Assembly: GCA_965205535.1 (NCBI GenBank)
Contig: CBDBHH010000005.1
Coordinates: forward strand, 2,317,773-2,381,772
Reading direction: 5' to 3'
DNA from: Alphaproteobacteria bacterium
Lineage (GTDB): Bacteria > Pseudomonadota > Alphaproteobacteria > UBA6615
DNA length: 64,000 nt
Below are positions 1-26,752 of this stretch, piece by piece. The notes beneath the pieces were generated by a model. It made no database searches and was not told the origin of the DNA. It saw only the letters and a program-made list of their open reading frames with translations. The translations under genes and the position numbers were made by a program. Within the stretch, counting starts at the first letter, position 1; every line of letters begins with the position of its first letter.

Positions 1-2083
1 CGCGTGCCTCGTCCGGTGTCTCCATGAGCGCGCCGGCCGCCATGGCCGCCTTGCGGTCGACGGGGACGGGGTCGGGCGTATCGGGCGGCGGCATCATGTT
101 GGCGTGGTAATAGGCCATGCGCTGCTTGGCCGGATCGACCTTGCGTGACGGGTCGATCTCGCGCTGGTTGACCCCCTTGGGCGCGACCGTGCGGTCGCCG
201 ACCACTTCATGATCGAACCACCATTTCTTTTTCAGATTACGCCTGCCGTTGCCCAGCGCGTCGTCCAGCCAGGTCGCGATCGGTACCATGATCGGTTTCA
301 GGAACAGGGCGTTGACCCCCATCCAGCTCGCCAGGCGGGTGAGCAGGGCGCCGTCGGTATCGACCACCTTGTTGATGGGACAGGTCTTCATGCAGCGCCC
401 ACAGGCCGACCCGTGCGGATTGGTGACACGGTAGCGCGCGCAACGTTCGGCGTCCGGCTTCCAGATCTCGTAGCCGTTGAACATTACCTTGTCGCCGAAC
501 GGGATGGCGTCGCATGGGCATTCGCGCGCGCATTTAAGGCAGTTGTTGCAGAAGGTCTGGAGCCCGAAATCGATCGGCTTGTCGGCCTCGAGTGGTATGT
601 CCGTGGTCAGCACGACGGATTTGAAGCGCGGCCCGACAAACGGGTTCAACACCAGCTCACCAATTCGGCTCATTTCGCCCAACCCCGCGAGCAGAACCAG
701 GGGGATCTGCAATACGTCGCTGTCGGCGTTGGTCTGGGCGCGGGCGGGAAACCCCAACTGGCCGAGCATGTGAGACATCACGCCGGCGATCTCCGCCCCG
801 CGCTGGTAACCGCGCATCGACTGACTGCCGGAAATCCAGTCGTCGCCGCTGGCGCCTTCCATCGTGTCGAAGCCCTGGTCGATCAGCATCACCACGGCAT
901 ATTTGTGATACATCTCGATTTCAGTGCCGTCATCCTTGTGGGAATACCAGGCATAGCGGGGGATCTCGCAAATGCCTGTCAGGTCGGCCCCCAGAAAGTA
1001 GGACAGCGACTTCAGTGCCTTGCTGTTCTGTGCCGCGTCGGAATATTTCGACATATCCGGCGCGGTTGTCGGGTTGCCATCCTGATGGGGCACCATGGCG
1101 CGGATCAAAGACACCATCGAGCGGGCGAGCGGGTGCTTCGTGGCAAACCGGGCGCGTTCGCGTTGGGCCTTGTCGCCGAGATCGCCCTGGAGGGCACGCT
1201 CAAAAAACGCCGCCCGCTTTGGCACCCGCGGGACTTCGTCATCGAGAATAAGCGTCGTGGGCCGATCAATGCGTTTGACCGTTTCCATCGGGTAGCGGCT
1301 GGCATGTGACGGGCGTCCTGCGCGGCGGTTTCGTTCGCGGCCGGACTGGGCGTCGTTGATGCCCCACCAGTAGCGCAGGCCCTTGGCATTCATCGCCTTC
1401 GCGGCCAGGGGGCGGTCGCATTCAAGCTGATAGCTGGTCGAGATGACGGCGAAGGTGAAGTTCTCGATATACGGGTTGGCGAGGCTGTCATCGTCGTTGC
1501 GGATGGCGATACCGGCCAGCACGGCGAGGCGGTCTTCGTCGAGCATCCGGTCGCCGGGAACGTCGGCGCGTGCGTCATAGCCCATCAGCCGGATATGGCC
1601 TGCAATATTGACGGCGATCTCGGTGGCCCGCATTTCGGCCGTCTCGACCACCGCGGGTTTTGTCCACTCCGCCGAGAGCGGCTCATCATCGGGCACGCGG
1701 CTATGTTCGACCATGATGACGATCGCGTGGCTGTGGGGCAGGGGCGTCGTGCCGGTTCGCCACGCGCTTTCGGGGATCAGGCAAATACCGGCCTGGCTTG
1801 CATCCAGGAAATAAGCCGCGCCCATGATGTCGACCGTGCAGCGTTTCACATCATCGGTATCGGGGGCGGTCTCGGGCGCAACATCACCGACCGCGAATTG
1901 CGCAAACATGTCGCGGAAGTTGCGCGTGACTTCGCCGAGCAGCGGCGACGCCGGGCGATCATCGGCCGGTGGGGCGGGCGGTCGTGATATTTCAAGTGTC
2001 CCGAGAGAGTCGTCTCGAGGCAACGTTTCCAGGGGAAACGAACCCAGATGAAACGGCCGATTTCCGTTCTTCAGCAGGTGCAT
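1..2083 (-). CDS. reductive dehalogenase-like protein (RdhA family, corrinoid plus two [4Fe-4S]); C-terminus runs off the window start
   Basis: Hand translation of the minus strand gives an open frame from ATG at 2083-2081 (in-frame TGA at 2098-2096) to position 1 with no stop. The C-terminal part contains FCNNCLKCARECPCDAIPF (CxxCxxCxxxCP, plus coords ~520-470) and CARYRVTNPHGSACGRCMKTCP (C-x11-CxxCxxxCP, ~455-385), the two-cluster arrangement typical of RdhA. The N-terminus has no twin-arginine motif. It is absent from the ORF track because no stop lies inside the window. Confidence 0.6.
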   Translation of the reverse strand, partial: MHLLKNGNRPFHLGSFPLETLPRDDSLGTLEISRPPAPPADDRPASPLLGEVTRNFRDMFAQFAVGDVAPETAPDTDDVKRCTVDIMGAAYFLDASQAGICLIPESAWRTGTTPLPHSHAIVIMVEHSRVPDDEPLSAEWTKPAVVETAEMRATEIAVNIAGHIRLMGYDARADVPGDRMLDEDRLAVLAGIAIRNDDDSLANPYIENFTFAVISTSYQLECDRPLAAKAMNAKGLRYWWGINDAQSGRERNRRAGRPSHASRYPMETVKRIDRPTTLILDDEVPRVPKRAAFFERALQGDLGDKAQRERARFATKHPLARSMVSLIRAMVPHQDGNPTTAPDMSKYSDAAQNSKALKSLSYFLGADLTGICEIPRYAWYSHKDDGTEIEMYHKYAVVMLIDQGFDTMEGASGDDWISGSQSMRGYQRGAEIAGVMSHMLGQLGFPARAQTNADSDVLQIPLVLLAGLGEMSRIGELVLNPFVGPRFKSVVLTTDIPLEADKPIDFGLQTFCNNCLKCARECPCDAIPFGDKVMFNGYEIWKPDAERCARYRVTNPHGSACGRCMKTCPINKVVDTDGALLTRLASWMGVNALFLKPIMVPIATWLDDALGNGRRNLKKKWWFDHEVVGDRTVAPKGVNQREIDPSRKVDPAKQRMAYYHANMMPPPDTPDPVPVDRKAAMAAGALMETPDEAR

Positions 2084-2217
2084 GGAAGGCGTGCCTCAGT
2101 GTCAGGTCGGAAGGGTGCTTCGACGCTCGAAGCGGGACCATTCTCGCGGTGAACGCCCTTAACCACAACCGCCATCGCGCGGCGACAAGTTGGCATGCAG
2201 ATTGCTCTAGAGGGGGT

Positions 2218-2430
2218 ATGAACAATCTATCTCTCATCCGTGGCCGGAATCACGATGTTGCCAATGATGTTGGCCACTCTGATGCGGACCGCGAGGCAAT
2301 GCGCAGCTGGATCACAATGCTGCGAAAGGAAGCCAAGAACCTTCGTTCCGAGGCGCAACACATGCTCGAAGTCGCTGAAGAGGCCGAAACACTGGCCGGC
2401 CGGATCGATTTTCAGCTGAAAAGCCAATAA
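2218..2430 (+). CDS. small hypothetical protein (70 aa), divergent from the rdhA-like gene
   Basis: ATG at 2218 inside ORF 1969..2430 (MNNLSLIRGRNHDV...). It is followed by a hairpin and T-run at 2504-2545. No recognisable domain. Confidence 0.25.
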   Translation: MNNLSLIRGRNHDVANDVGHSDADREAMRSWITMLRKEAKNLRSEAQHMLEVAEEAETLAGRIDFQLKSQ

Positions 2431-2503
2431 ATGCGAGCAACAGGCACGCCGGTTGCATCGTTAGGGGTAGGACACTTGAGTGTATTTGTGTCCTCCTCCC
2501 CCA

Positions 2504-2545
2504 ATAAGGCGGCGTCCAACCTGGTCGCCGCCTTTATTGTTTTCG
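2504..2545 (+). terminator. intrinsic terminator-like hairpin (aaggcggcg-N11-cgccgcctt) followed by tattgttttcg; possibly bidirectional
   Basis: GC stem of 9 bp plus a T-rich tract seen directly; an A-rich tract on the other side could serve the minus-strand Fis-like gene. Confidence 0.4.
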
Positions 2546-2722
2546 GGCCGAAACAGATTAAAACAACAATTAAATCAAATGCTTGATATGAATTATTGGT
2601 CTCGATCAGCGCTACGAACCGACCTCTGCGGGTGCGCCGCCATTGTGTCTTCGCGGTCGCAGTTTGAGACACGAAATCGCATTGTGAAACGTGATACCGC
2701 AGTCAAAATGCGAGGCGAAAGC

Positions 2723-2914
2723 CTAGTCTGCGTCGACGGCCGGGTCGGTTTCGTCCCATTTAGCGCGCTTGCGGTAGAGCGTGGCGGGCGAGACTTCCAG
2801 ATACGTCGCCGCCATACGCACATTGCCATCGCACAACTCGATCGCGCGCTCGATGGCGTCGCGCTCCATATCCTCCAACGGCCGAATGTCATCCGGCACA
2901 TTGTCCGTCGTCAT
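2723..2914 (-). CDS. small Fis-family (HTH_8) DNA-binding protein, 63 aa
   Basis: ERDAIERAIELCDGNVRMAATYLEVSPATLYRKRAKW matches the Fis/NtrC C-terminal helix-turn-helix. The start codon lies 7 bp from the IS3 element end. Confidence 0.6.
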   Translation of the reverse strand: MTTDNVPDDIRPLEDMERDAIERAIELCDGNVRMAATYLEVSPATLYRKRAKWDETDPAVDAD

Positions 2915-2974
2915 ATAAAATGGGACATCAGAGTGGTTTGAGCATTGGAGTCTCTGGCTCGTTTGTGTGATTGA

Positions 2975-3955
2975 TTATGCGGCTTGTTTCTGATGTTGCA
3001 AGCGGCGTTGTTTGATTGTGTTTTTCTTAATCTTTTCCCTTTCTCTGAGAATTGCTTTGTCGCGGCCGAAGTAGACGTCGACTGGTGTGACGTTGTTCAG
3101 GCTCTCGTGGTAGCGCCGGTTGTTGTAGTATTCGACGAAGGCCCCGATCTGGCGTTCAAGATCGCCTGGCAGATAGTAATTCTCCAGCAGAACCCGGTTC
3201 TTCATGGTCTGGTGCCAGCGTTCGATTTTGCCTTGGGTTTGTGGGTGGAACGGCGCGCCGCGAACATGCGTCATTTTTTGATCCTCCAACCAGTTGGCCA
3301 GATCGCCGGAGATGTAGCATGAACCGTTGTCGCTGAGCAGACGTGGCTTGTGACGCACAACCGCCTGGTCGCAACCAGACGCCGTCAGCGCCAGCTCGAT
3401 CGTGTCTGTCACGTCCTCAGCACGCATGTTGGTGCAAAGCTTCCACGCAATGATGTAGCGGCTGTAATCATCGAGGATCGTGCTCAGATAATACCAGCCC
3501 CAGCCAATGATCTTGAAGTAGGTGAAGTCTGTTTGCCACATCTCGTTGATGGCCGTGGTTTTGTCGGTGAACTCGTCGGCAGCTTTGATCACCATGTAGT
3601 CTGGCGCGGTGATGAGGTCAGCTGCTTTGAGAATGCGATAAGCTGATGATTCAGAGACAAAATACCGCCTCTCATCCGTGTATTTGACCGCCAGTTCCCG
3701 TGTGGTCAGCGCCTCATGTTCCAGCGCGAACTCGATCAGGTCATCACGACGAGCATCAGGGATGCGGTTCCAGACCGATCCTGGGCGTGGGGATTTGTCA
3801 GCCAGTCCATCCAGGCCGCCGTCAATATAGAGATCATACCATCGGTAGAATGTCGTGCGTGGGATGCCCAGCATGTCGAGGGTTTGTTTCACCGGCAGAT
3901 GTGATCCCTCAACGGTGCGGATGATCTCCAGTTTCTCAGACGCAGGGTATCTCAT
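2975..3955 (-). CDS. IS3 family transposase OrfB (integrase core, DDE)
   Basis: Protein with WQTDFTY...DNGSCY...QTQGKIERWH motifs typical of IS3 OrfB (rve domain); expressed as an OrfAB fusion by -1 frameshifting. Confidence 0.9.
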   Translation of the reverse strand: MRYPASEKLEIIRTVEGSHLPVKQTLDMLGIPRTTFYRWYDLYIDGGLDGLADKSPRPGSVWNRIPDARRDDLIEFALEHEALTTRELAVKYTDERRYFVSESSAYRILKAADLITAPDYMVIKAADEFTDKTTAINEMWQTDFTYFKIIGWGWYYLSTILDDYSRYIIAWKLCTNMRAEDVTDTIELALTASGCDQAVVRHKPRLLSDNGSCYISGDLANWLEDQKMTHVRGAPFHPQTQGKIERWHQTMKNRVLLENYYLPGDLERQIGAFVEYYNNRRYHESLNNVTPVDVYFGRDKAILREREKIKKNTIKQRRLQHQKQAA

Positions 3956-4326
3956 TCCTCGAACTCCCCAGCCCCTGTCATGCTTTTTTTGAGCAGACGG
4001 TTCTCAAGGGTGAGATCGGCAACGCATTCCTTTAATGCCAGCGACTCCGAGCGCAGATCCTTCACTTCGGGCGGCGTAGCCTGCCGTGCCGTGTCACCAG
4101 ATAACCGGCGCTTGCCAGCTTCGAGAAATTCCTTGGACCAGCTATAATACAGGCTCTCGGCAATCCCCTCGCGGCGGCACAGCACCGAGATGCTTTCCTC
4201 GCCACGCAGGCCCGCCAAGACGATGCGGATTTTCTCTTCAGCTGAATAGGTTTGCCGCGTCTTGCGGCGGATGTTCTTAACCACCTTGCCGGCGGCGTCT
4301 TTCGATGTCTGGGGCTTCTTCGTCAT
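3952..4326 (-). CDS. IS3 family transposase OrfA (HTH)
   Basis: RRKTRQTYSAEEKIRIV...LKKS pattern of IS3 OrfA; ends at the AAAAAAG slippery site. Confidence 0.9.
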   Translation of the reverse strand: MTKKPQTSKDAAGKVVKNIRRKTRQTYSAEEKIRIVLAGLRGEESISVLCRREGIAESLYYSWSKEFLEAGKRRLSGDTARQATPPEVKDLRSESLALKECVADLTLENRLLKKSMTGAGEFEE

Positions 4327-4480
4327 CTCGATCTCCTAATCGATAAGATGAACCAGAAATCCTCCGTTATTCAAATCCTCAATTCTGTCCCACGGGTGCT
4401 GACGTCAGACAGGGATACATGCTACAGGTGTCGCAGTCGCCTACCAAAGGCCAAAATCGTCAGTATAGGGGGGGCATCGC

Positions 4481-5101
4481 ATGACCGAGTCCAGTCTGAG
4501 GCGCTACACAAACCTTTCTGCCACGCTTCATATTTTGCAGGACAGGAGTCTCACGCTGCTCAGCCCAAGTAGTTGGGATGATAGAAATGACGCTTATTAT
4601 CTGACCGAGTATCAAAGAAGAGTCCATGCGCAGTCTGTGCTCGCTCTTTGTTTTGCAGAAGCACCCGAGACCTACCACCATTGGCGGGTGTTTTCGTCCG
4701 GCTCTGGTGGCGTATGTTTGGAGTTTGATAAAGCCAAGGTCGAAAAGTGTGTTCAGGACGATGGTCGGTTTACATGCAGATCAGTTGATTACAGGACGAT
4801 TGATGCTGCCGCGACAAAGGGTTTTGAGACAGATCAACTGCCATTTGTTAAGCGGTTTCCTTACTCGGATGAGAAAGAATTTCGCATAATCTTTGTTGAC
4901 AAGGATGATGGCAAAAATATTCAGCGGATGGAAATCTCTCTAAATGCAATCAGACGCATAACGCTCAGCCCTTGGATGCCAAGACCCCTCGCAGATGCAG
5001 TGAAATCGACGTTGAAAGGTATAAAAGGGTGCCAACACTTGAAAGTTTATCGCTCCACTCTTGTCGATAATGAACGTTGGAAAAACGCTGTTAATCAATA
5101 A
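4481..5101 (+). CDS. hypothetical protein (206 aa) in a low-GC module
   Basis: ORF with G-rich RBS (ggggggg) upstream; visibly AT-richer than flanking DNA; no confidently recognised domain. Confidence 0.5.
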   Translation: MTESSLRRYTNLSATLHILQDRSLTLLSPSSWDDRNDAYYLTEYQRRVHAQSVLALCFAEAPETYHHWRVFSSGSGGVCLEFDKAKVEKCVQDDGRFTCRSVDYRTIDAAATKGFETDQLPFVKRFPYSDEKEFRIIFVDKDDGKNIQRMEISLNAIRRITLSPWMPRPLADAVKSTLKGIKGCQHLKVYRSTLVDNERWKNAVNQ

Positions 5102-5310
5102 CTCAAGTGACTCCAATGCGTGACCCGCGCATATGGTTGTGTGGCACCGGGTCTTCTTGATGGGATGTATTGGGCGAGATAAGGGGTCTTACGCAGGTAA
5201 AGTGGCTTTCAAAGAGAGAACCCTAAAAACAGTATATTCAATAGGTTGACAGTTTTAAGTGCCTTTATCAGGTGTCGAGCGTTCGCAAAAACTAGGAAAT
5301 CTAACAATCG

Positions 5311-6387
5311 ATGGATGAGATTCCCCATACACCGAGAACGGTTTTTGTAGATACAGGCGAATACCGGTCGAAGAATTTTCATTTCGGCAACCCGGCTTTG
5401 TCGGCATTAAAATCGCATGCAAAAGAAAGAAGGGTCAGACTAATTTCGACCTCAATCACCGAAATGGAAATTCGGCGAAAAATTGCTGAATCGGTGAAAG
5501 ACGGCCTATCAAAATTATCCGGCGCTCAGGCGAATCTCGCATCTCTCCGAGATGTGCCTTCCGATGTTTATACCTTCACGCGGATCAAATTTTCTGAAGC
5601 CGGGTTGATTAGAAAAGTACATGAACTCTATGAAGCTTATTTCCGTGATTGCTCCGGAACCGTTCTGGATGCTTTTCAATGTGATGCCGAAAGCATTTTT
5701 AACGACTACTTCCACGTAAAGCCGCCCTTCAAGGAAGGCAAAAAATCAAAAGAATTTCCGGACGCTTTCGTAATGGCGACGTTGAAAGAATGGAGCGAAA
5801 CTAACGGACAAAAGCTGCACGTGATTAGCACCGACGGCGATATCAAGGCGTTCTGCGAGGTGACAGATCAGCTAATACATTTTCCGTCAACCGAAGCCTA
5901 TGTGAACTTTTTGTTTGTTGGCGAGGATATAGCCAGCGCGGAAACGCTAACCGCCTTTAACAGGATGAAACCCAAAATTGAGAAACGAATTATCGACTGG
6001 GTTCCCAACAATTTTGGCGACCTCGGCTTTGTAATCGAAGACCAGTATGACGGTGAGGTTTCTAATGTTGATGTACACGATACGGCCATCGTTGATTGGT
6101 ATGTATTGGATGTAAGCGATGACCATGTTCATGCCGAGGTGAAGTTAGAAGTGGAATTTGAAGCGGAATTTTCGTATCCCGACTACGACACTGCCTCATA
6201 CGATAGTGAGGATAAGGTGCTCATACCATGGCGCGACATTTCAGGCTCCAAGTTGACGACAACTACCGTGATGGCCGAACTTCACTACAAGGTAGATCAC
6301 AAAAAACCTGAAAACTCTGCAATCGAATCTCTGCAGTTGCCGACCCTATCAACTATCGAGATTGATGTCGGAGACGAAGGCCTGTAG
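5311..6387 (+). CDS. PIN-like domain protein (DUF4935-like N-terminus), 358 aa, acidic C-terminal half
   Basis: The N-terminus TVFVDTGEYRSKNFHFGN...RLISTSITEMEI resembles PIN-like/DUF4935 openings. Low-GC context. Family assignment is from memory and not verified. Confidence 0.45.
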   Translation: MDEIPHTPRTVFVDTGEYRSKNFHFGNPALSALKSHAKERRVRLISTSITEMEIRRKIAESVKDGLSKLSGAQANLASLRDVPSDVYTFTRIKFSEAGLIRKVHELYEAYFRDCSGTVLDAFQCDAESIFNDYFHVKPPFKEGKKSKEFPDAFVMATLKEWSETNGQKLHVISTDGDIKAFCEVTDQLIHFPSTEAYVNFLFVGEDIASAETLTAFNRMKPKIEKRIIDWVPNNFGDLGFVIEDQYDGEVSNVDVHDTAIVDWYVLDVSDDHVHAEVKLEVEFEAEFSYPDYDTASYDSEDKVLIPWRDISGSKLTTTTVMAELHYKVDHKKPENSAIESLQLPTLSTIEIDVGDEGL

Positions 6388-6462
6388 CCTTTCCGATGAG
6401 AAATATGTCACAGTATATTACACAGTGAGTCTGTAACTCATTGAAAAATAACAAGAACAATA

Positions 6463-6520
6463 GGACTTAAAATCCCTCGGCCTCACGGCCTTGCCGGTTC
6501 AAGTCCGGCCGCCCGCACCA
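6463..6520 (+). other. tRNA 3' fragment (type II tRNA, Leu-like; variable arm, T-arm, acceptor 3' strand, CCA), putative island attachment-site repeat
   Basis: ggcctcacggcc (variable-arm hairpin), gccGGTTCAAGTCCggc (T-arm), cgcccgc-A-CCA (acceptor plus CCA) ending at 6520. No matching 5' acceptor strand (gcgggcg) or D-arm upstream, so this is only the 3' part. Confidence 0.45.
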
Positions 6521-6554
6521 AATTCCTTCTATTGGTACGCTGCACCCTGAAGGA

Positions 6555-7238
6555 TCACGCGGCGTCCGCAGCGTCGCGGGCGCGGGCGTTGAGGTCGTCG
6601 AAATCATCGGGCCAGTTGTCGGCGAGCCAACGCAGATAGGTCTTTATGTTCGCCGGGTCGATGCGCACGGAGCCCCGGATCTTGTCCACCTCGGGCTGCG
6701 CCTCGATCGGCAGCTTCAGGGAATCGTTGAAGCGGTTGATCATGTTGAACATCGCGCAGATCAGTGTCAGCTCGATGATCTCGGCTGAATCAAACTGCGC
6801 CTCTACGCGCTCGAACACGTCGTCGCGCGCAGCGGCGGTGTTCTTGGTCATGTGTTCGGCCCACTCGATGGCGGCGCGTTCGCGCGCGTCAAACAAGTCA
6901 GATGTCAGGTAGTCGTCGGACGAGATGGCAATCACCTGGTCGTGTGAGATGCCGGCCGCCTCACCGAGTGCGGTGTTGTGGGCGTAGCAATATTCGCAGC
7001 CGTTGACGTGGCTGGTCTTGATGATGACCATTTCCTTGAGCTTCGATGACAGGTGCACGCCCGGCCACTCGCGCTGGTTAGCAGCCTGGAAGGGCAGGTA
7101 CAGCATCGCCAGGTAGGGTGCATGCGCCATCGTGCGATAGGCGTTCGGGACCCGGCCGACGAGGCCCGTGACCGCGTCATAGAAATGCTTGAGCTCGTCC
7201 GGGGCATTCTCGGGATTGATGTTCGGTACGCGCGACAT
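6555..7238 (-). CDS. carboxymuconolactone decarboxylase family protein (AhpD-like, CxxC)
   Basis: HVNGCEYCYAHN motif and 227 aa length; strong RBS AGGAGAGAAAGC before the ATG. Confidence 0.8.
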   Translation of the reverse strand: MSRVPNINPENAPDELKHFYDAVTGLVGRVPNAYRTMAHAPYLAMLYLPFQAANQREWPGVHLSSKLKEMVIIKTSHVNGCEYCYAHNTALGEAAGISHDQVIAISSDDYLTSDLFDARERAAIEWAEHMTKNTAAARDDVFERVEAQFDSAEIIELTLICAMFNMINRFNDSLKLPIEAQPEVDKIRGSVRIDPANIKTYLRWLADNWPDDFDDLNARARDAADAA

Positions 7239-7255
7239 GCTTTCTCTCCTGGTGC

Positions 7256-8242
7256 CTAGTCGTCCGCCCAGCGTTTGGTGTCATTCCAACTCCGCTTGGG
7301 CTCGGTAAACTCAGTCGGTGGATTGTTCATCTGTATGAACTGTTCCACAAGGGCAGATACGGTCTCCGGCGCATCTTCCTGAAGATAATGCCCGACGCCC
7401 GGCAGGGAAATAAGCGGTCCGTTGGGCCAGAAGCTCTTGAAGCGGAACTTCACCCAGTGGGGCGGCATGGCCCGGTCTTCCTCGCCGACGATGCACATCG
7501 CGGGGATGGTCTTGAGCACATTGATGTCGTGGGTCTCAGCCATTTCATTGAAAAAGCCGAACGTGTCCGGGTTGGCGATCGCCCGCGGGAAGGCCAGCGC
7601 GCCGCGGCAGGATTCGACGGTCGGGAAGGGGCCGGAGAAGGCGCGGACCCAGGTCTCGTCGACATGATTGGTATTCTCGAAGCCGACACGCTTCATGACC
7701 GACAGGATGGTCGAGCCGAGATGGGACAGGGTCGGCTCGAACTCGTGGGTCTGGGTCCAGTTGAACCATTTGTGGTGTTCGGTCGGGAAGGTGGCGTCCA
7801 TCGGCTCGTCGGACCAGGGCGCGTAGGTGTTGCAGATCGCCAGGCATTTGACCCGGTCGGGGTGGCGCAGCGCAAAGCTGATGCCGATTGAGCCGCCCCA
7901 ATCCTGCATGATGAAGGTGATGTTGCGTACATCCAGATCGAGCAGCAGCCGCTCCAGATTGTCGGCGTGATCGCGGATCGAGTAGTCGCGGTCCTGTGGC
8001 GTTTCGCTTTTCCCGAAGCCCATATGGTCCGGCACGATGACCCTGCCGACCTTGCTTAACCGGGGGATGAAGTTCCGGTAGAGGTAGCCCCAGGTCGGTT
8101 CCCCATGGAGGGGGATGATGACGTCATCCGCGCCATCGGGCGCGTTGTTCACATCGACATAGTGCTGGCGAAAGCCATTGCCCTCGAAAAAATGCGGCGC
8201 GTACGGCCAGGTGCCGTCGAATGTCTCGTCTGCCGGTATCAT
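7256..8242 (-). CDS. dhlA: haloalkane dehalogenase, HLD-I (DhlA-like) alpha/beta hydrolase
   Basis: LHGEPTWGYLYRN...HMGFGKSE...QDWGGSIG (Asp nucleophile and Trp) closely parallel Xanthobacter DhlA. Start reassigned to MIPADETF with RBS GGAGAA, since the track ORF is over-extended to 8356. Confidence 0.8.
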   Translation of the reverse strand: MIPADETFDGTWPYAPHFFEGNGFRQHYVDVNNAPDGADDVIIPLHGEPTWGYLYRNFIPRLSKVGRVIVPDHMGFGKSETPQDRDYSIRDHADNLERLLLDLDVRNITFIMQDWGGSIGISFALRHPDRVKCLAICNTYAPWSDEPMDATFPTEHHKWFNWTQTHEFEPTLSHLGSTILSVMKRVGFENTNHVDETWVRAFSGPFPTVESCRGALAFPRAIANPDTFGFFNEMAETHDINVLKTIPAMCIVGEEDRAMPPHWVKFRFKSFWPNGPLISLPGVGHYLQEDAPETVSALVEQFIQMNNPPTEFTEPKRSWNDTKRWADD

Positions 8243-8420
8243 GATGTTCTCCCTTATTGGCATACAGCCTAACAATGGCCGGAACCGTCGAACTATGGAT
8301 AAGTTCCGCGTCTCAATGCCTGAGCGCAATCCATTCTGCCCACACGGCCCTGACAATCGTCGCCAGACAGCCTATTTTCAGGGGCACCTATTCGTTTGAC
8401 CTCACGTCGGAGCCTCCGCA

Positions 8421-9404
8421 ATGCCCACCATCGATATCCATACCCACATGTTCGGCGACGGCTGGCTCGACATGATCAAGAAGCATGGCGCGCCCGCCTA
8501 TGAGATTGCCGATATGGAAGACCGGCGCAACTATCTGGTCGAATACGGCACGCCGGCCTGCGCCCTGGAGGTCGAGGCGTTCGACTATGACAAGCGTGTA
8601 GAGATGATGGACCGGCTGGGCATCGACATCTCCATCGTCTCGCTGACCTCGCCCAATGTGCATTTCGGCGACGAGGCGATCAGCGTGGCCACCGCGCGCC
8701 TGGCGAATGACGAGATGGCCGCCGGGCAGACGGCGCACCCCGACCGCATCCGCTGGTTTGCGTCCCTGCCATGGGAGTACCCCGATGCCGCCATTGCCGA
8801 GCTCGACCGCTGCATCGCGCTGGGCGCTGTCGGCGTCATGTGCGTGGCCCATATCGGCCAGCGGCACCTGATCGATCCGCTGTTCGCGCCGGTCTGGGAC
8901 GCGCTGAACAAGCGCGCGTTCCCGGTGCTCATCCATCCGACCGCGCCGCTGGGGGCCAAGGACGTCAACTTCGGCTTCGAGCGCATCCTGATGCCGGCGG
9001 CAGGCTTCATGTATGACACCACGATCGCGCTCGCGCGGATGGCCATCGACGGCTTCTTCGAGCGCTATTCGGACATCAAGATGATCGCCAGCCATGGCGG
9101 CGGCTATCTTCCGTTCGTGAATGGTCGCGTGGATATGTTCTTCGGCGTCGAGACCCTGGCGAAGTTCGATATTCCCAAGCTGCCGAGTGACTATTTCAGC
9201 CAGCTCTATTATGACGCCATCGTCTACGATCCGGCGGCGCTGCAGCTGGTGATCGATATCGCCGGCCCCGAAAAGGTGATGTTCGGCACCGACCTGCCGA
9301 TGCCGGCGGATGTCCCCAAGCTCTACGACCTCGTGGATGGCCGCCCCGCGGACGAAATCGCGGCGATTCGCGGTGACAACGCGGTCCGGGTATTCGGGCT
9401 ATAG
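8421..9404 (+). CDS. amidohydrolase 2 family protein (ACMSD/2-pyrone-4,6-dicarboxylate hydrolase-like)
   Basis: MPTIDIHTHMF...; PF04909-type metal-binding HxH start and length of 327 aa. Confidence 0.8.
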   Translation: MPTIDIHTHMFGDGWLDMIKKHGAPAYEIADMEDRRNYLVEYGTPACALEVEAFDYDKRVEMMDRLGIDISIVSLTSPNVHFGDEAISVATARLANDEMAAGQTAHPDRIRWFASLPWEYPDAAIAELDRCIALGAVGVMCVAHIGQRHLIDPLFAPVWDALNKRAFPVLIHPTAPLGAKDVNFGFERILMPAAGFMYDTTIALARMAIDGFFERYSDIKMIASHGGGYLPFVNGRVDMFFGVETLAKFDIPKLPSDYFSQLYYDAIVYDPAALQLVIDIAGPEKVMFGTDLPMPADVPKLYDLVDGRPADEIAAIRGDNAVRVFGL

Positions 9405-24740: not shown

Positions 24741-26660
24741 TCAATCGGCGCGCAGGGTCTCGAGGATAACCTTGGTCAGCTTTTCGGACATGTTCGGCCA
24801 GAGATGGGAATGATCGAGCGTGTAGAGTTGCTCGCCGTCATGCGCCTGACACTTTCCGTCTTTGCAGAACACGTCGATCGCGGAGACGAACTCAACACCT
24901 TCGTCGCGCGCCAGTTTTGCGAGATTCTTGTCCAGTGGACCACGCGGCCCCTGACCAAGTGTCACATACTCCGGGTATGATTTTGTCTTGGCGAATTCTT
25001 CCTGAAGCAGCTCAAGTGGCTTCTTGCCCCACATCGGGCTCGGCCCGATCACCAGAATTTTGCTGTCGACGTTTTCCTTTATCCTTTTGATCGTATCTTT
25101 CAGTTCGTCCAGCTCAGACAATGTGCCGGCGGCAATCACGATGTAGTCGGGTTCCGTGCTCACGAGGTCTTCGAAAATCTCGTCGTTCACGACCGCGCAT
25201 CTGGCACCCAACTTGCCATTCTGTGTGCCAGTGAAATTCAGCAGAGGCTGGCACCCCGATATTGATCGGCTGATGATCGGCGTTCTAGGTGGAAGCAGGC
25301 GCGTGAAGCCCGTGTAGAGATGCCAGACATGGCTATCTCCCCAGAGAAAATAGGATTCCTTATCGAAATCGAACGCGGTCTCGTCAGCCCTGCAATTGTC
25401 AAAGAGATTGTCCTTCATCACCATATCGGGCGATCGATGGCCACAAATAGGCTGACCGTGACTGCGATATTCGTTAGGTGACGTCGCGGCGGTGTTCTTG
25501 ACAATTGTTTCGAACGGGAACCGGCCCGGGAGACCATTCGAGATATAGAAGTGGCTGTATGCGGCGAGTAAGGCCAGAAAGACTGGCGCTGACAAGATCA
25601 CAAATCGCTTTGTTGAAACGCGACGACGATTTCGCATTGGTCGTTCAATTGCGTAGAACGTCACCGTCGCCCCGAACAGCGATATTCCCACGCCCGCAAG
25701 CATGTCAGTATTTGACGGGATGTCGACATAGGTTCGGACGAATGCGAACACAGTGAAATGCCATAGATAAAGGCTGTAGGAGATCAAGCCGATCCATACG
25801 AGCGGCCGCATCGACAAGATTCTGGTCGAGAGGCCGTCAGTATTCGAAAACCAGATGACCAACATGGTTCCGAGGACGGGCGCCAGGGTGAGAAACGACG
25901 GGTGGCTGGTGTTCTCGTCGAAAAATGCGATCGATCCGAAAATCAAAAGAAATCCAACGATCGGCATTGCAAGATTGAGGGAGCGGCTACTGGCCCGTCC
26001 CTTTCTCAGTTCGATCCGCGCGAGAATCGCTCCCCCCATCAACTCCCAGATTCGCGTGGGCAGAAGATAGAACGCAGCGTCGGGGTCTACATCGCTTTCA
26101 AACTGCGAGAACAGCAAAGAGAGCAGGAAAACAACGGCAAGCGCGCCAGTGATATACTTTCCGGCAAACCTCCACATCGCGATGAGAAAGATCGGATAAA
26201 GCAGATAGAACTGCTCTTCGACGGCCAGCGACCAGGTGTGCAGAAACGGCTTGAGTTGGCTCGCCACCGCCAGGTAGCTGTTTTCTTGCCAGAACCAGAT
26301 ATTCGAGCTGAAGAACAGCGCTGCCAGCGCTGATCCGGCGTACTGCTTCATTTCGTAGGGGAAGAGAAGCAGCCATGCGGCGGGAATCGAAATCACCATC
26401 ACGGTGAACAGTGATGGGAGAAGGCGCCGCGCGCGCCTTAGATAAAAGTCCTTGATGGAGAATTGGTCGGCACCGAGGTCTTTCATTATCAACGAGGTAA
26501 TCAGGTAACCCGAGATAACGAAAAAGACGTCGACCCCCAAAAAGCCGCCGCGGAGAAATTTGTCACCGCTCGAGAAAACAAAATCGGCATGGAAAAGAAC
26601 GATCGAAATCACTGCGATCGCGCGCAAGCCGTCAATTTCTGGGCGATATCTCAACGACAT
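24741..26660 (-). CDS. acyltransferase family 3 (OafA/YrhL-like) with C-terminal SGNH hydrolase domain
   Basis: MSLRYRPEIDGLRAIAVISIVLFHAD... with ~10 TM helices and a C-terminal GDSH-type domain; lower GC than neighbours. Confidence 0.85.
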   Translation of the reverse strand: MSLRYRPEIDGLRAIAVISIVLFHADFVFSSGDKFLRGGFLGVDVFFVISGYLITSLIMKDLGADQFSIKDFYLRRARRLLPSLFTVMVISIPAAWLLLFPYEMKQYAGSALAALFFSSNIWFWQENSYLAVASQLKPFLHTWSLAVEEQFYLLYPIFLIAMWRFAGKYITGALAVVFLLSLLFSQFESDVDPDAAFYLLPTRIWELMGGAILARIELRKGRASSRSLNLAMPIVGFLLIFGSIAFFDENTSHPSFLTLAPVLGTMLVIWFSNTDGLSTRILSMRPLVWIGLISYSLYLWHFTVFAFVRTYVDIPSNTDMLAGVGISLFGATVTFYAIERPMRNRRRVSTKRFVILSAPVFLALLAAYSHFYISNGLPGRFPFETIVKNTAATSPNEYRSHGQPICGHRSPDMVMKDNLFDNCRADETAFDFDKESYFLWGDSHVWHLYTGFTRLLPPRTPIISRSISGCQPLLNFTGTQNGKLGARCAVVNDEIFEDLVSTEPDYIVIAAGTLSELDELKDTIKRIKENVDSKILVIGPSPMWGKKPLELLQEEFAKTKSYPEYVTLGQGPRGPLDKNLAKLARDEGVEFVSAIDVFCKDGKCQAHDGEQLYTLDHSHLWPNMSEKLTKVILETLRAD

Positions 26661-26752
26661 TCAGAACAGCAATCTCAAAAACCCACCAATCGCACACCCC
26701 GCAAGCCTATCCCGCTGACGTGTGTCGGGGCCAATCACCAAACCAAGCGGCT

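What the first reader, a model, noticed from the sequence alone, without database searches (positions are those of the whole stretch)
4392..6520. Low-GC two-gene module (hypothetical 206-aa protein plus PIN-like 358-aa protein) bounded by an IS3 element and a tRNA 3' fragment: a candidate defence or toxin cassette on an island remnant
The DNA between 4400 and 6490 is visibly AT-richer than everything around it. It encodes two same-strand genes with their own promoter-like AT-rich leaders and ends at a tRNA-Leu-like 3' fragment at 6463-6520. The second protein opens with a PIN-like, DUF4935-like motif (VFVDTGEY...) and has a long acidic tail. The first has no recognisable domain. Small foreign-GC gene pairs with a PIN-like nuclease at integration hot-spots are typical of anti-phage or abortive-infection systems, and this pairing does not match a system I can name.
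Basis: partly seen in the sequence, partly recalled or inferred. Interest (0 to 1): 0.7.

Follow-up and report, generated by a model that had tools for sequence, protein, structure and literature searches.

The report
Two independent defence genes, island remnant
This AT-rich 2-kb stretch is the eroded end of a mobile island that inserted at a leucine tRNA gene; it carries two unrelated, probably self-sufficient anti-phage candidate genes (a DarT-like ADP-ribosyltransferase and a PIN_12 nuclease) that happen to be neighbours, so it is not a new two-gene system.

Summary
Window 4412-6461 is 45.7% GC against 61.7% elsewhere (z about -7.6 for the nearly identical span 4393-6461). It carries two intact same-strand genes and ends at a 58-nt 3' fragment of tRNA-Leu(UAA). 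An IS3 element (2902-4411, no target duplication) cuts off its left side.

The two-gene module is not supported. Only 1 of 80 A-family loci has a B-like neighbour. None of 80 B-family loci has an A-like neighbour. B relatives occur on 70 plasmids and A relatives on essentially none. In the closest A relative (81%), homology stops about 20 bp past A, and an unrelated gene follows.

Each family has an experimentally shown single-gene antiphage relative: Aristaios for DUF2971 and Cosus for PIN_12. Verdict: two new members of known kinds, side by side on an island remnant. Interest is low to moderate.

The parts
2723..2914 (-). 63-aa ORF with a Fis-type HTH_8 domain. Its ATG lies inside the IS3 terminal repeat, so it is probably the C-terminal remnant of a longer regulator gene cut by the IS. 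The 2100-2901 stretch around it is about 54% GC.
   Evidence: Pfam HTH_8 E 2.6e-11. IS left end at 2902. GC of 2200-2920 is 0.544.
2902..4411 (-). IS3-family insertion sequence, 1510 bp. It has orfA 3952-4326 and orfB 2975-3955, imperfect TG...CA terminal inverted repeats, and no target-site duplication (CAT on the left, GGG on the right). It forms the left boundary of the module.
   Evidence: rve, rve_3 and HTH_Tnp_1 domains. 339 plasmid records match, and the best match window 2902-4412 at about 84% identity, annotated as IS3 family transposase. Inverted repeats match 10/12 and 17/26, chance about 3e-5.
4412..6461 (+). AT-rich foreign module (45.7% GC) carrying genes A and B. It is the right-hand remnant of an integrated element.
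4481..5101 (+). Gene A, 206 aa. It is a DarT-like ADP-ribosyltransferase-fold protein of the PDC-S31/DUF2971 family. Family-invariant residues include R8-Y9-T10 on strand 1, Y65 and W68, and E131-x-E133 at the start of a strand (a candidate ExE motif).
5102..5310 (+). 209-bp spacer between A and B. It has no terminator-like site, no consensus promoter, no repeats and no unusual RNA structure.
   Evidence: fold z-score +0.71.
5311..6387 (+). Gene B, 358 aa, a full-length PIN_12 (DUF4935) family protein.
   Evidence: Pfam PF16289 E 7.8e-22, residues 11-177. Family of about 350-aa proteins: 4727 cluster representatives at E<=1e-3. pLDDT 90.4.
5335..5883 (+). PIN nuclease domain of B (residues 9-191). 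D14, E53, D151, S173 and D175 are conserved (D14 in at least 90% of the 42-sequence alignment, the rest invariant), and D177 is nearly invariant.
6025..6363 (+). C-terminal beta-rich acidic domain of B (residues 239-351). With the preceding helices (194-237) it probably forms an NTF2/VirB8-like fold.
6190..6231 (+). Motif TASYDSEDKVLIPW (residues 294-307). Positions A295 to P306 are nearly invariant in a family that is only 20-30% identical overall.
6432..6444 (+). 13-mer TGTAACTCATTGA just upstream of the tRNA fragment. The same 13-mer lies upstream of the tRNA-Leu(UAA) att fragment of an E. coli defence island and of two enterobacterial viral contigs. Its significance is uncertain.
6463..6520 (+). 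3' fragment of tRNA-Leu(UAA), running from the anticodon stem through the anticodon loop CUUAAAA, the long variable arm and the T arm to the acceptor 3' strand and CCA. It is interpreted as the attR-type repeat left by integration, and the core CMD-family gene (6555-7238, -) follows.

Best explanation
The region is the right-hand remnant of a mobile element that integrated into a tRNA-Leu(UAA) gene of a marine alphaproteobacterium. The displaced 3' tRNA fragment (6463-6520) marks the attR junction with the core genome. The left part of the element, where the integrase and the intact tRNA would be expected, has been lost or moved by an IS3-mediated rearrangement: the IS (2902-4411) has no target duplication and cuts an unrelated gene.

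Two cargo genes survive, and they are best read as two separate single-gene units.

Gene A is a DarT-like ADP-ribosyltransferase of the PDC-S31/DUF2971 family. The fold and the conserved residues are shown here. The mechanism is inferred: it uses NAD+ to ADP-ribosylate a nucleic acid (ssDNA as DarT does, or RNA) when a phage infects, which stalls phage gene expression in an abortive-infection manner, as reported for the DUF2971 protein Aristaios.

Gene B is a PIN_12 protein. The PIN fold with its full set of metal-binding acidic residues, and a conserved C-terminal NTF2/VirB8-like domain, are shown here. The mechanism is inferred: a Mg2+-dependent endonuclease whose activity is gated, or whose assembly is directed, by the C-terminal domain. 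It would act as a stand-alone defence or abortive-infection nuclease like the PIN_12 integron cassette Cosus.

Their adjacency reflects accumulation of defence cargo at an integration hot spot, not a functional pair.
For: Island and boundaries: GC and GC3 deviation; the tRNA fragment; the same layout at tRNA-Leu(UAA) in E. coli, where a defence island with type I R-M, DUF262 and Hhe is followed by the fragment and then core yecA; a viral-contig layout with the fragment next to an integrase-like ORF; IS3 ends without a target duplication; a core-like gene left of about 2100.

Gene B: PF16289 E 7.8e-22; PIN fold; conserved acidic residues and C-terminal motif. DUF4935 genes are 'usually mono-cistrons' (PMC5499597). 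Cosus/Brc24 has a PIN12 domain, protects against T7, and loses most protection with D14A (bioRxiv 10.1101/2024.07.02.601719).

Independence: 1 of 80 and 0 of 80 co-occurrence; no conserved neighbour for either family; B on 70 plasmids, A on one partial plasmid hit and no phage; in L170 (A 81% identical) DNA homology covers only A plus about 20 bp either side, and the next gene is unrelated to B; L171 and L172 lack PIN_12; the two A-B pairs come from distant branches. A-family genes are AT-richer than their flanks in 92% of 76 loci, as expected for a mobile single-gene cassette.
Against: No experiment bears on these two proteins. A and B have almost the same GC (46%), lie on the same strand with no terminator between them, and the same order recurs once (L019), so co-transcription and some functional link are not excluded.

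A scores just below Pfam's DUF2971 threshold (19.5 against 22 bits), and the profile search finds no sequence-level similarity to DarT. Mapping of the catalytic motifs is by position in the model, not by superposition. I could not compare the sequences of Aristaios and Cosus with A and B.

Many B-family neighbours are housekeeping or plasmid-maintenance genes, so a non-defence role is possible. B lacks the family's conserved C-terminal ...PYK end. The island's left end and integrase are not in the window, so the integration history is inferred from one junction.
Confidence: 0.68

Rival explanations
1. A and B form a genuine two-gene defence system. A DarT-like ART and a PIN_12 nuclease would work together, for example one as sensor or regulator and the other as effector, or as two effectors under one trigger.
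For: Same strand, 209-bp spacer with no terminator, and near-identical GC. The same order A then B recurs in a Hyphomicrobium MAG, L019, with a spacer of about 80 bp, next to Mrr-like and trypsin-like genes. Other branches of the B family do have tight partners, such as AbiH 2 bp downstream on IncX4 plasmids, so PIN_12 proteins can work in pairs.
Against: Co-occurrence is 1 of 80 and 0 of 80, and no B-bearing plasmid carries A. The closest A relatives (81%, 62%, 60%) lack B, and homology ends at A's borders. The closest B relative (32%) sits beside TIR and unrelated small genes. The two pairs involve distant branches: rank 139 of 265 for B and 114 of 121 for A.
Confidence: 0.1
2. The pair is a toxin-antitoxin module. 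One version is a VapC-like PIN toxin (B) neutralised by A. The other is a DarT-like toxin (A) neutralised by B in place of the DarG macrodomain.
Against: VapC toxins are single-domain proteins of about 130 aa preceded by a small antitoxin gene, whereas B is 358 aa with two domains and no such partner. No macrodomain or NADAR gene is present, and A's family has no conserved neighbour in 80 loci. The partners do not co-occur. Both proteins keep enzyme-like invariant residues, which an antitoxin role does not explain.
Confidence: 0.04
3. The genes are not defence genes. They would be mobile-element or housekeeping accessories, for example an RNA-processing PIN nuclease and an NAD-dependent modifying enzyme serving the element's own biology, or decaying cargo with no current function.
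For: There is no experimental data for these subfamilies. B's neighbours include relaxases, replication initiators, integrases and plain metabolic genes. B has no PADLOC model. PDC-S31 is only a candidate. B lacks the conserved C-terminal end of its family.
Against: Both ORFs are intact and keep all family-invariant residues. The A family is a PADLOC defence candidate and is AT-rich relative to its flanks in 92% of loci. Defence genes recur next to both families: TIR, AbiH, Mrr-NACHT, restriction enzymes and methyltransferases, and SNF2/DISARM-like helicases. Related proteins (Aristaios, Cosus) protect against phage experimentally.
Confidence: 0.18

Closest known systems
PDC-S31 (PADLOC single-gene phage-defence candidate) / DUF2971 (PF11185), including the lactococcal system Aristaios
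   Same: A gives a near full-length HMM match to PDC-S31 (E 2.9e-14). Its homologs are annotated DUF2971. It has an ART fold, a stand-alone gene organisation and a mobile, AT-rich character. Aristaios is a single-gene DUF2971 protein with an abortive-infection-like phenotype.
   Different: A is 206 aa against 316 aa for Aristaios. A itself scores below Pfam's DUF2971 cut-off. BLAST of A against the plasmid collection gave no lactococcal hit, so any relation to Aristaios is distant. No phenotype is known for PDC-S31 proteins.
DarT toxin of DarTG toxin-antitoxin/defence systems
   Different: Identity is 11-15% with no sequence-level hit. There is no adjacent DarG macrodomain antitoxin, and no conserved partner at all. 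The motif I histidine appears replaced (R8-Y9-T10). The substrate is unknown.
Cosus (Brc24), a PIN12-domain integron cassette protecting E. coli against T7
   Same: It is reported to carry a PIN_12 domain, to act as a single gene, and to depend on an aspartate at position 14. B also has D14 in the VFVDT motif.
   Different: The Cosus sequence and length were not available to me, so homology beyond the domain name is untested. Cosus is an integron cassette in gammaproteobacteria, whereas B is island cargo in an alphaproteobacterium and is no more than 32% identical to any protein found.
DUF4935/PIN_12 family as defined by Matelska et al. 2017 (VapC-like group of PIN-like domains)
   Same: About 350 residues, an N-terminal PIN with 4-5 conserved acidic residues, a C-terminal alpha/beta region without known homologs, and genes that are usually monocistronic. 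B fits every point.
   Different: My model suggests the C-terminal region is an NTF2/VirB8-like domain with the near-invariant ASYDSEDKVLIPW motif, which that paper did not describe.
VapC toxins of VapBC type II TA systems
   Same: PIN fold and acidic active-site residues.
   Different: B is nearly three times longer, has an extra conserved domain, and has no upstream VapB-type antitoxin.
tRNA-Leu(UAA) (leuZ)-associated defence island of E. coli
   Same: The architecture is the same: defence cargo and IS elements, then a 3' tRNA-Leu(UAA) fragment starting in the anticodon stem, then a core gene. A shared 13-mer lies upstream of the fragment.
   Different: The cargo is entirely different (type I R-M, DUF262, Hhe). 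Similarity outside the tRNA part is limited to 13 nt. The integrase is not available in the window.

Membership tests
PDC-S31 / DUF2971 (gene A) | Significant match to the family HMM over most of the protein | tested here: met
   PADLOC PDLC04993 E 2.9e-14, residues 6-196 against profile positions 17-235 of 245, plus two further PDC-S31 models. The PADLOC library carries no curated cut-off.
PDC-S31 / DUF2971 (gene A) | Pfam PF11185 score at or above the gathering threshold | tested here: not met
   19.5 bits against a cut-off of 22 for the window protein. Several 50-68% identical homologs carry precomputed PF11185 hits, and the L019 homolog scores 22.7 bits. Membership is therefore at the family border.
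PDC-S31 / DUF2971 (gene A) | ADP-ribosyltransferase fold with conserved Y and ExE-type motif (PMC12522546) | tested here: met
PDC-S31 / DUF2971 (gene A) | Stand-alone (single-gene) organisation | tested here: met
   No conserved neighbour across 80 loci. Homology with the closest relative is limited to the ORF.
DarTG (gene A as DarT) | Sequence membership in the DarT family | tested here: not met
   No DarT model hit in PADLOC or Pfam at E<=1. The profile search against PDB sequences finds no DarT.
DarTG (gene A as DarT) | Adjacent DarG (macrodomain) antitoxin gene | tested here: not met
   The only neighbours are the IS3 element and the PIN_12 gene.
DarTG (gene A as DarT) | NAD+-dependent ADP-ribosylation of thymidine in ssDNA | not testable with these tools
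   This needs a biochemical assay.
PIN_12 / DUF4935 (gene B) | Pfam PF16289 above the gathering threshold | tested here: met
   78.9 bits against a cut-off of 32, profile positions 1-171 of 172.
PIN_12 / DUF4935 (gene B) | PIN fold with 4-5 conserved acidic residues | tested here: met
PIN_12 / DUF4935 (gene B) | Protein of about 350 aa with a C-terminal alpha/beta region; usually monocistronic | tested here: met
   358 aa. Family members are about 350 aa and match end to end. The C-terminal domain is modelled at pLDDT above 90. No conserved neighbour across 80 loci.
Cosus (gene B) | Sequence homology to Brc24 beyond the shared domain name; anti-T7 activity | not tested
   The Brc24 sequence did not turn up in a term search of the paper's main text and supplement.
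VapBC type II TA (gene B as VapC) | Small single-domain PIN toxin with an upstream antitoxin gene | tested here: not met
   358 aa with two domains. The upstream gene is a 206-aa ART-fold protein, and no small ORF lies in the 209-bp spacer.
tRNA-integrated genomic island | tRNA 3'-end sequence at the island/core junction | tested here: met
tRNA-integrated genomic island | Second att copy with the intact tRNA, and an integrase gene | tested here: not met
   There is no tRNA in the 64 kb, no second copy of the 3' end, and no integrase among the ORFs between 2100 and 6520. The truncation by IS3 explains this absence but does not prove it.
tRNA-integrated genomic island | Compositional deviation from the host genome | tested here: met
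   z = -7.6 for GC and -4 to -4.5 for GC3.
IS3 family | orfA/orfB with a DDE (rve) transposase, TG...CA inverted repeats, and a 3-4 bp target duplication | tested here: inconclusive
   The domains and inverted repeats are met. The target duplication is absent (CAT against GGG), which points to a later rearrangement or deletion and does not argue against IS3 membership.

The most novel reading that the evidence does not exclude
The A-B juxtaposition is a real but rare two-gene system, in which a stand-alone DarT-like ART has recruited a PIN_12 protein as partner. The PIN protein would act as a sensor or second effector, or as an unconventional antidote replacing DarG. The association would have arisen at least twice (this window and Hyphomicrobium L019). 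This would fit a broader pattern in which PIN_12 proteins act as a common module that pairs with varied abortive-infection effectors (AbiH, TIR, ART).
Probability: 0.08. Interest if true: 0.6.

Novelty: new member of a known kind. Interest (0 to 1): 0.25.

Why it matters
The main value is as a clean negative: an attractive 'PIN plus unknown' pair at a tRNA hot spot resolves into two neighbouring single-gene cassettes, so it should not be catalogued as a new system.

There are secondary gains. (1) Gene A adds a compact 206-aa, DarT-like member to the PDC-S31/DUF2971 family. That family has over 1700 relatives with no antitoxin-like partner, which raises the question of how a DarT-like enzyme is kept harmless without DarG. 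(2) The PIN_12 family (thousands of cluster representatives) has a predicted NTF2/VirB8-like C-terminal domain with an almost invariant ASYDSEDKVLIPW motif, which is an obvious target for mutagenesis. (3) tRNA-Leu(UAA) appears as a defence-cargo integration site in both an alphaproteobacterium and E. coli.

Tried and rejected
NCBIfam gave no hit for A or B.

Rfam on the region embedded in 9 kb missed the tRNA fragment, which appeared only when the sequence was cut at the fragment.

Looking up the source contig through the exact A and CMD proteins failed, as neither is on record. I therefore could not examine the rest of the source genome or an empty-site relative. The single genome-collection scan did not return the source species; the best hit was 59%.

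A profile-versus-PDB sequence search for A found nothing meaningful, so the DarT relation rests on fold alone.

The 199-aa and 172-aa genes next to the closest B homolog (L001) were tested as possible A relatives and rejected.

The 256-aa gene downstream of the closest A homolog (L170) was tested as a possible B and rejected.

P0278, which has the same length as B, was tested as a possible missed ortholog and rejected at 22% identity.

A ToxIN-like RNA or repeat element in the spacers was rejected.

My first reading of the IS ends by eye (2921-4392) was wrong; BLAST against plasmid copies corrected it, and a MAFFT alignment of the ends was mis-registered.

The afdb50 fold library was unavailable.

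A literature search for 'PDC-S31' and for AbiH + PIN domain found nothing.
Full report
OBSERVATION. GC drops to 0.44-0.47 across 4600-6400, against about 0.60-0.65 on either side. Measured over 4393-6461, the module is 45.9% GC, against 61.7 +/- 2.1% for 556 same-size windows in the rest of the 64 kb (z = -7.6). Third-position GC is 0.46 for A and 0.50 for B, against 0.75 +/- 0.06 for 53 gene proxies (z = -4.5 and -4.0). The deviation is therefore real and large.

LEFT BOUNDARY. An IS3-family element lies upstream, with orfA at 3952-4326 and orfB at 2975-3955 on the - strand, carrying HTH_Tnp_1 and rve domains. 339 plasmid records hold related copies. The best, from Hoeflea and Sulfitobacter at about 84% identity, match window 2902-4412. 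The termini TGTCCGTCGTCA... and ...TGACGTCAGACA match at 10 of the first 12 and 17 of the first 26 positions (chance about 3e-5). The IS is therefore 2902-4411, the module begins at 4412 rather than 4392, and the 4412-6461 module is 45.7% GC. The 3-bp flanks differ (CAT against GGG), so there is no target-site duplication. The start codon of a 63-aa HTH_8 ORF (2723-2914, -) lies inside the IS terminal repeat, and the rest of that gene is not on the other side of the IS. The two flanks of the IS were therefore not originally contiguous, which points to an IS-mediated deletion or rearrangement. Left of about 2100 is a GC3-rich (0.79) core-like gene of at least 698 aa that runs off the window.

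RIGHT BOUNDARY. ARAGORN finds no tRNA in the 64 kb. When the sequence is cut at 6462, Infernal reports a 5'-truncated match to the tRNA clan covering model positions 30-91 (20.7 bits, E 0.02; the long variable arm makes the Sec model score best). The fragment has the anticodon loop CUUAAAA, a long variable arm, a T arm and CCA. It matches one conserved chromosomal place in 5301 of 5426 E. coli genomes at about 80% identity. From my own knowledge, that site is the leuZ tRNA-Leu(UAA) locus next to yecA. Homology starts in the anticodon stem at about 6463 and ends at CCA, position 6520. The 3' end has no second copy in the window. The core CMD-family gene follows at 6555-7238.

E. COLI PARALLEL. 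The best E. coli match is itself a fragment, since ARAGORN finds no tRNA there. It lies at the end of a defence island (type I R-M, two DUF262 genes, Hhe, and IS elements) and is followed by core yecA. Two enterobacterial viral contigs carry the same junction next to a 338-aa ORF that looks like a phage integrase by its sequence (not confirmed by a domain search), which is the layout expected of an attP. By analogy, 6463-6520 is the attR-type repeat of an element whose integrase and restored tRNA lay at the now-missing left end. This step is inferred.

GENE B. B matches Pfam PIN_12 (PF16289, formerly DUF4935) at E 7.8e-22, and has no PADLOC or NCBIfam model. A direct search finds only 11 relatives, none above 32% identity. 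The profile reaches 125 full-length relatives in the word-indexed search. In the exhaustive search it reaches 4727 cluster representatives at E<=1e-3 and 1090 at E<=1e-30, nearly all about 350 aa and matched end to end. Conserved residues are D14, E53, D151, S173, D175 and D177 in the PIN part, and a striking near-invariant ASYDSEDKVLIPW (295-307) in the C-terminal part.

ARE A AND B ONE SYSTEM? This was the core of the finding, and I tested it from both sides.

(i) From the A side, I fetched 80 A-family loci from species-representative genomes spanning Alpha-, Beta- and Gammaproteobacteria, Acidobacteria, Nitrospirota and others. Only L019, a Hyphomicrobium MAG, has a B-like ORF, and no other neighbour is conserved beyond lineage synteny.

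(ii) From the B side, I fetched 80 B-family metagenome loci. None has an A-like ORF even at E<=10, although 54 of them have at least 700 bp of upstream sequence. Their 127 immediate neighbours are heterogeneous: restriction enzymes and methyltransferases, SNF2/DISARM-like helicases, AbiH, integrases, relaxases, replication proteins, a terminase, and housekeeping genes.

(iii) On plasmids and phages, B relatives sit on 70 plasmids, 45 of them conjugative. A relatives give one partial plasmid hit and no phage hit.

(iv) Among the closest relatives, the nearest A homolog (81% aa identity, L170) shares DNA similarity with the window only from A's start codon to about 20 bp past its stop. The next gene there is 70% GC and unrelated to B (E 2.4), while A itself is 46% GC. 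The 62% and 60% A relatives also lack PIN_12. The closest B relative (32%, L001) sits with a TIR gene and two small genes unrelated to A.

(v) In the one recurrence, L019, the pair involves distant branches. Its B ranks 139th of 265 family hits to the window's B (24% identity), and its A ranks 114th of 121.

Across 76 loci, A-family ORFs are AT-richer than their flanks in 92% of cases, by a mean of 8.3 GC points. That fits a mobile single-gene cassette. The evidence therefore favours two independent units that happen to be neighbours. Against this, the two genes share the same strand and the same GC, no terminator was predicted between them, and L019 exists. I leave about 10% for a real pairing.

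MECHANISM. What is shown: the folds, the family memberships, the conserved residues, and the independence of the two genes. What is inferred: A uses NAD+ to ADP-ribosylate nucleic acid (DNA as DarT does, or RNA) on infection and so aborts phage gene expression. B cleaves RNA or DNA through its PIN site, under control of the conserved C-terminal domain. Both act alone.

COMPARISON AND NOVELTY. A is a new, compact member of PDC-S31/DUF2971. It works like DarT by fold, but it is not a DarT family member and has no DarG partner. B is a divergent but typical member of PIN_12/DUF4935, and it is not a VapBC toxin. The island architecture is standard. Nothing here is categorically new, and the proposed new pairing is not supported. 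Interest is low to moderate (0.25).

NON-CODING PARTS. There are no tandem repeats apart from a 12-nt duplication inside B, and the spacers have no unusual RNA structure. Rfam finds nothing else in 1-9000.

Noticed in passing
L166:4905-7047 (E. coli IncX4 mcr-1 plasmid pEC111, NZ_KY471146.1); also L116, L137, L140, L144, L152: One branch of the PIN_12 family has a tight, recurrent partner. An AbiH-family gene starts 2 bp after the PIN gene on IncX4 mcr-1 plasmids of E. coli and Salmonella, and the same PIN-then-AbiH order occurs in 5 of 80 metagenome loci (AbiH Pfam E 3e-64). AbiH is usually listed as a single-gene system, and I found no paper that mentions AbiH together with a PIN domain.
   Followed up: partly
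window 6432-6444; L165:19950-20050; L168:544-583; L169:1160-1199: The 13-mer TGTAACTCATTGA lies just upstream of the tRNA-Leu(UAA) att fragment in the window, in an E. coli defence island (type I R-M, DUF262 x2, Hhe) next to yecA, and in two enterobacterial viral contigs next to an integrase-like ORF. It may be a conserved integrase-binding site or a coincidence. The E. coli and viral copies are one element family, so this amounts to a single independent match.
   Followed up: partly
window 5311-6387: B's exact sequence is absent from the 15-billion-protein collection, and nothing above 32% identity exists there, although A and the neighbouring CMD protein from the same 3.6-Mb NCBI/ENA contig are present. 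B may not have been called or annotated in the source record.
   Followed up: partly
window 6364-6387 (B residues 352-358): B ends ...DVGDEGL and lacks the C-terminal ...(W)PYK/DYK ending whose Y is conserved in at least 90% of the family. Reading through the stop codon does not restore it.
   Followed up: no
window 2723-2914 and 2899-2901 / 4412-4414: The start codon of an HTH_8 (Fis-type) 63-aa ORF lies inside the IS3 terminal repeat, and the IS has no target-site duplication. The IS therefore joins two unrelated sequences, probably through an adjacent deletion or recombination between IS copies.
   Followed up: partly
L021:9940-12579: An array of 28 head-to-tail tRNA genes lies about 3.3 kb downstream of an A-family gene in an uncultured alphaproteobacterial MAG.
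   Followed up: no
L007:6691-6767 and L009:1281-1357: In two Methylocystis genomes the A-family gene ends 70-140 bp from a tRNA-His gene, so A-type cassettes sit beside tRNA genes elsewhere too.
   Followed up: no
L001:5961-9062: The closest B homolog lies in a four-gene insertion (TIR-domain protein, 172-aa and 199-aa unknowns, then PIN_12) between prephenate dehydrogenase-like and aroA/cmk housekeeping genes. This is a compact defence islet that might be a multi-gene system.
   Followed up: partly
L171:1433-4249: A 938-aa Mrr_cat / NA-iREase1 / NACHT protein lies directly upstream of a 62%-identical A homolog.
   Followed up: no
L010-L018 (Rhodobacterales), about 254 bp downstream of the A homolog, e.g. 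L010:6903-7478: A 192-aa ORF without a Pfam match is conserved downstream of A in seven Rhodobacterales loci. It could be lineage synteny or a clade-specific partner.
   Followed up: no
window 24750-26750: A second, milder low-GC stretch (about 53%) occurs elsewhere in the window.
   Followed up: no
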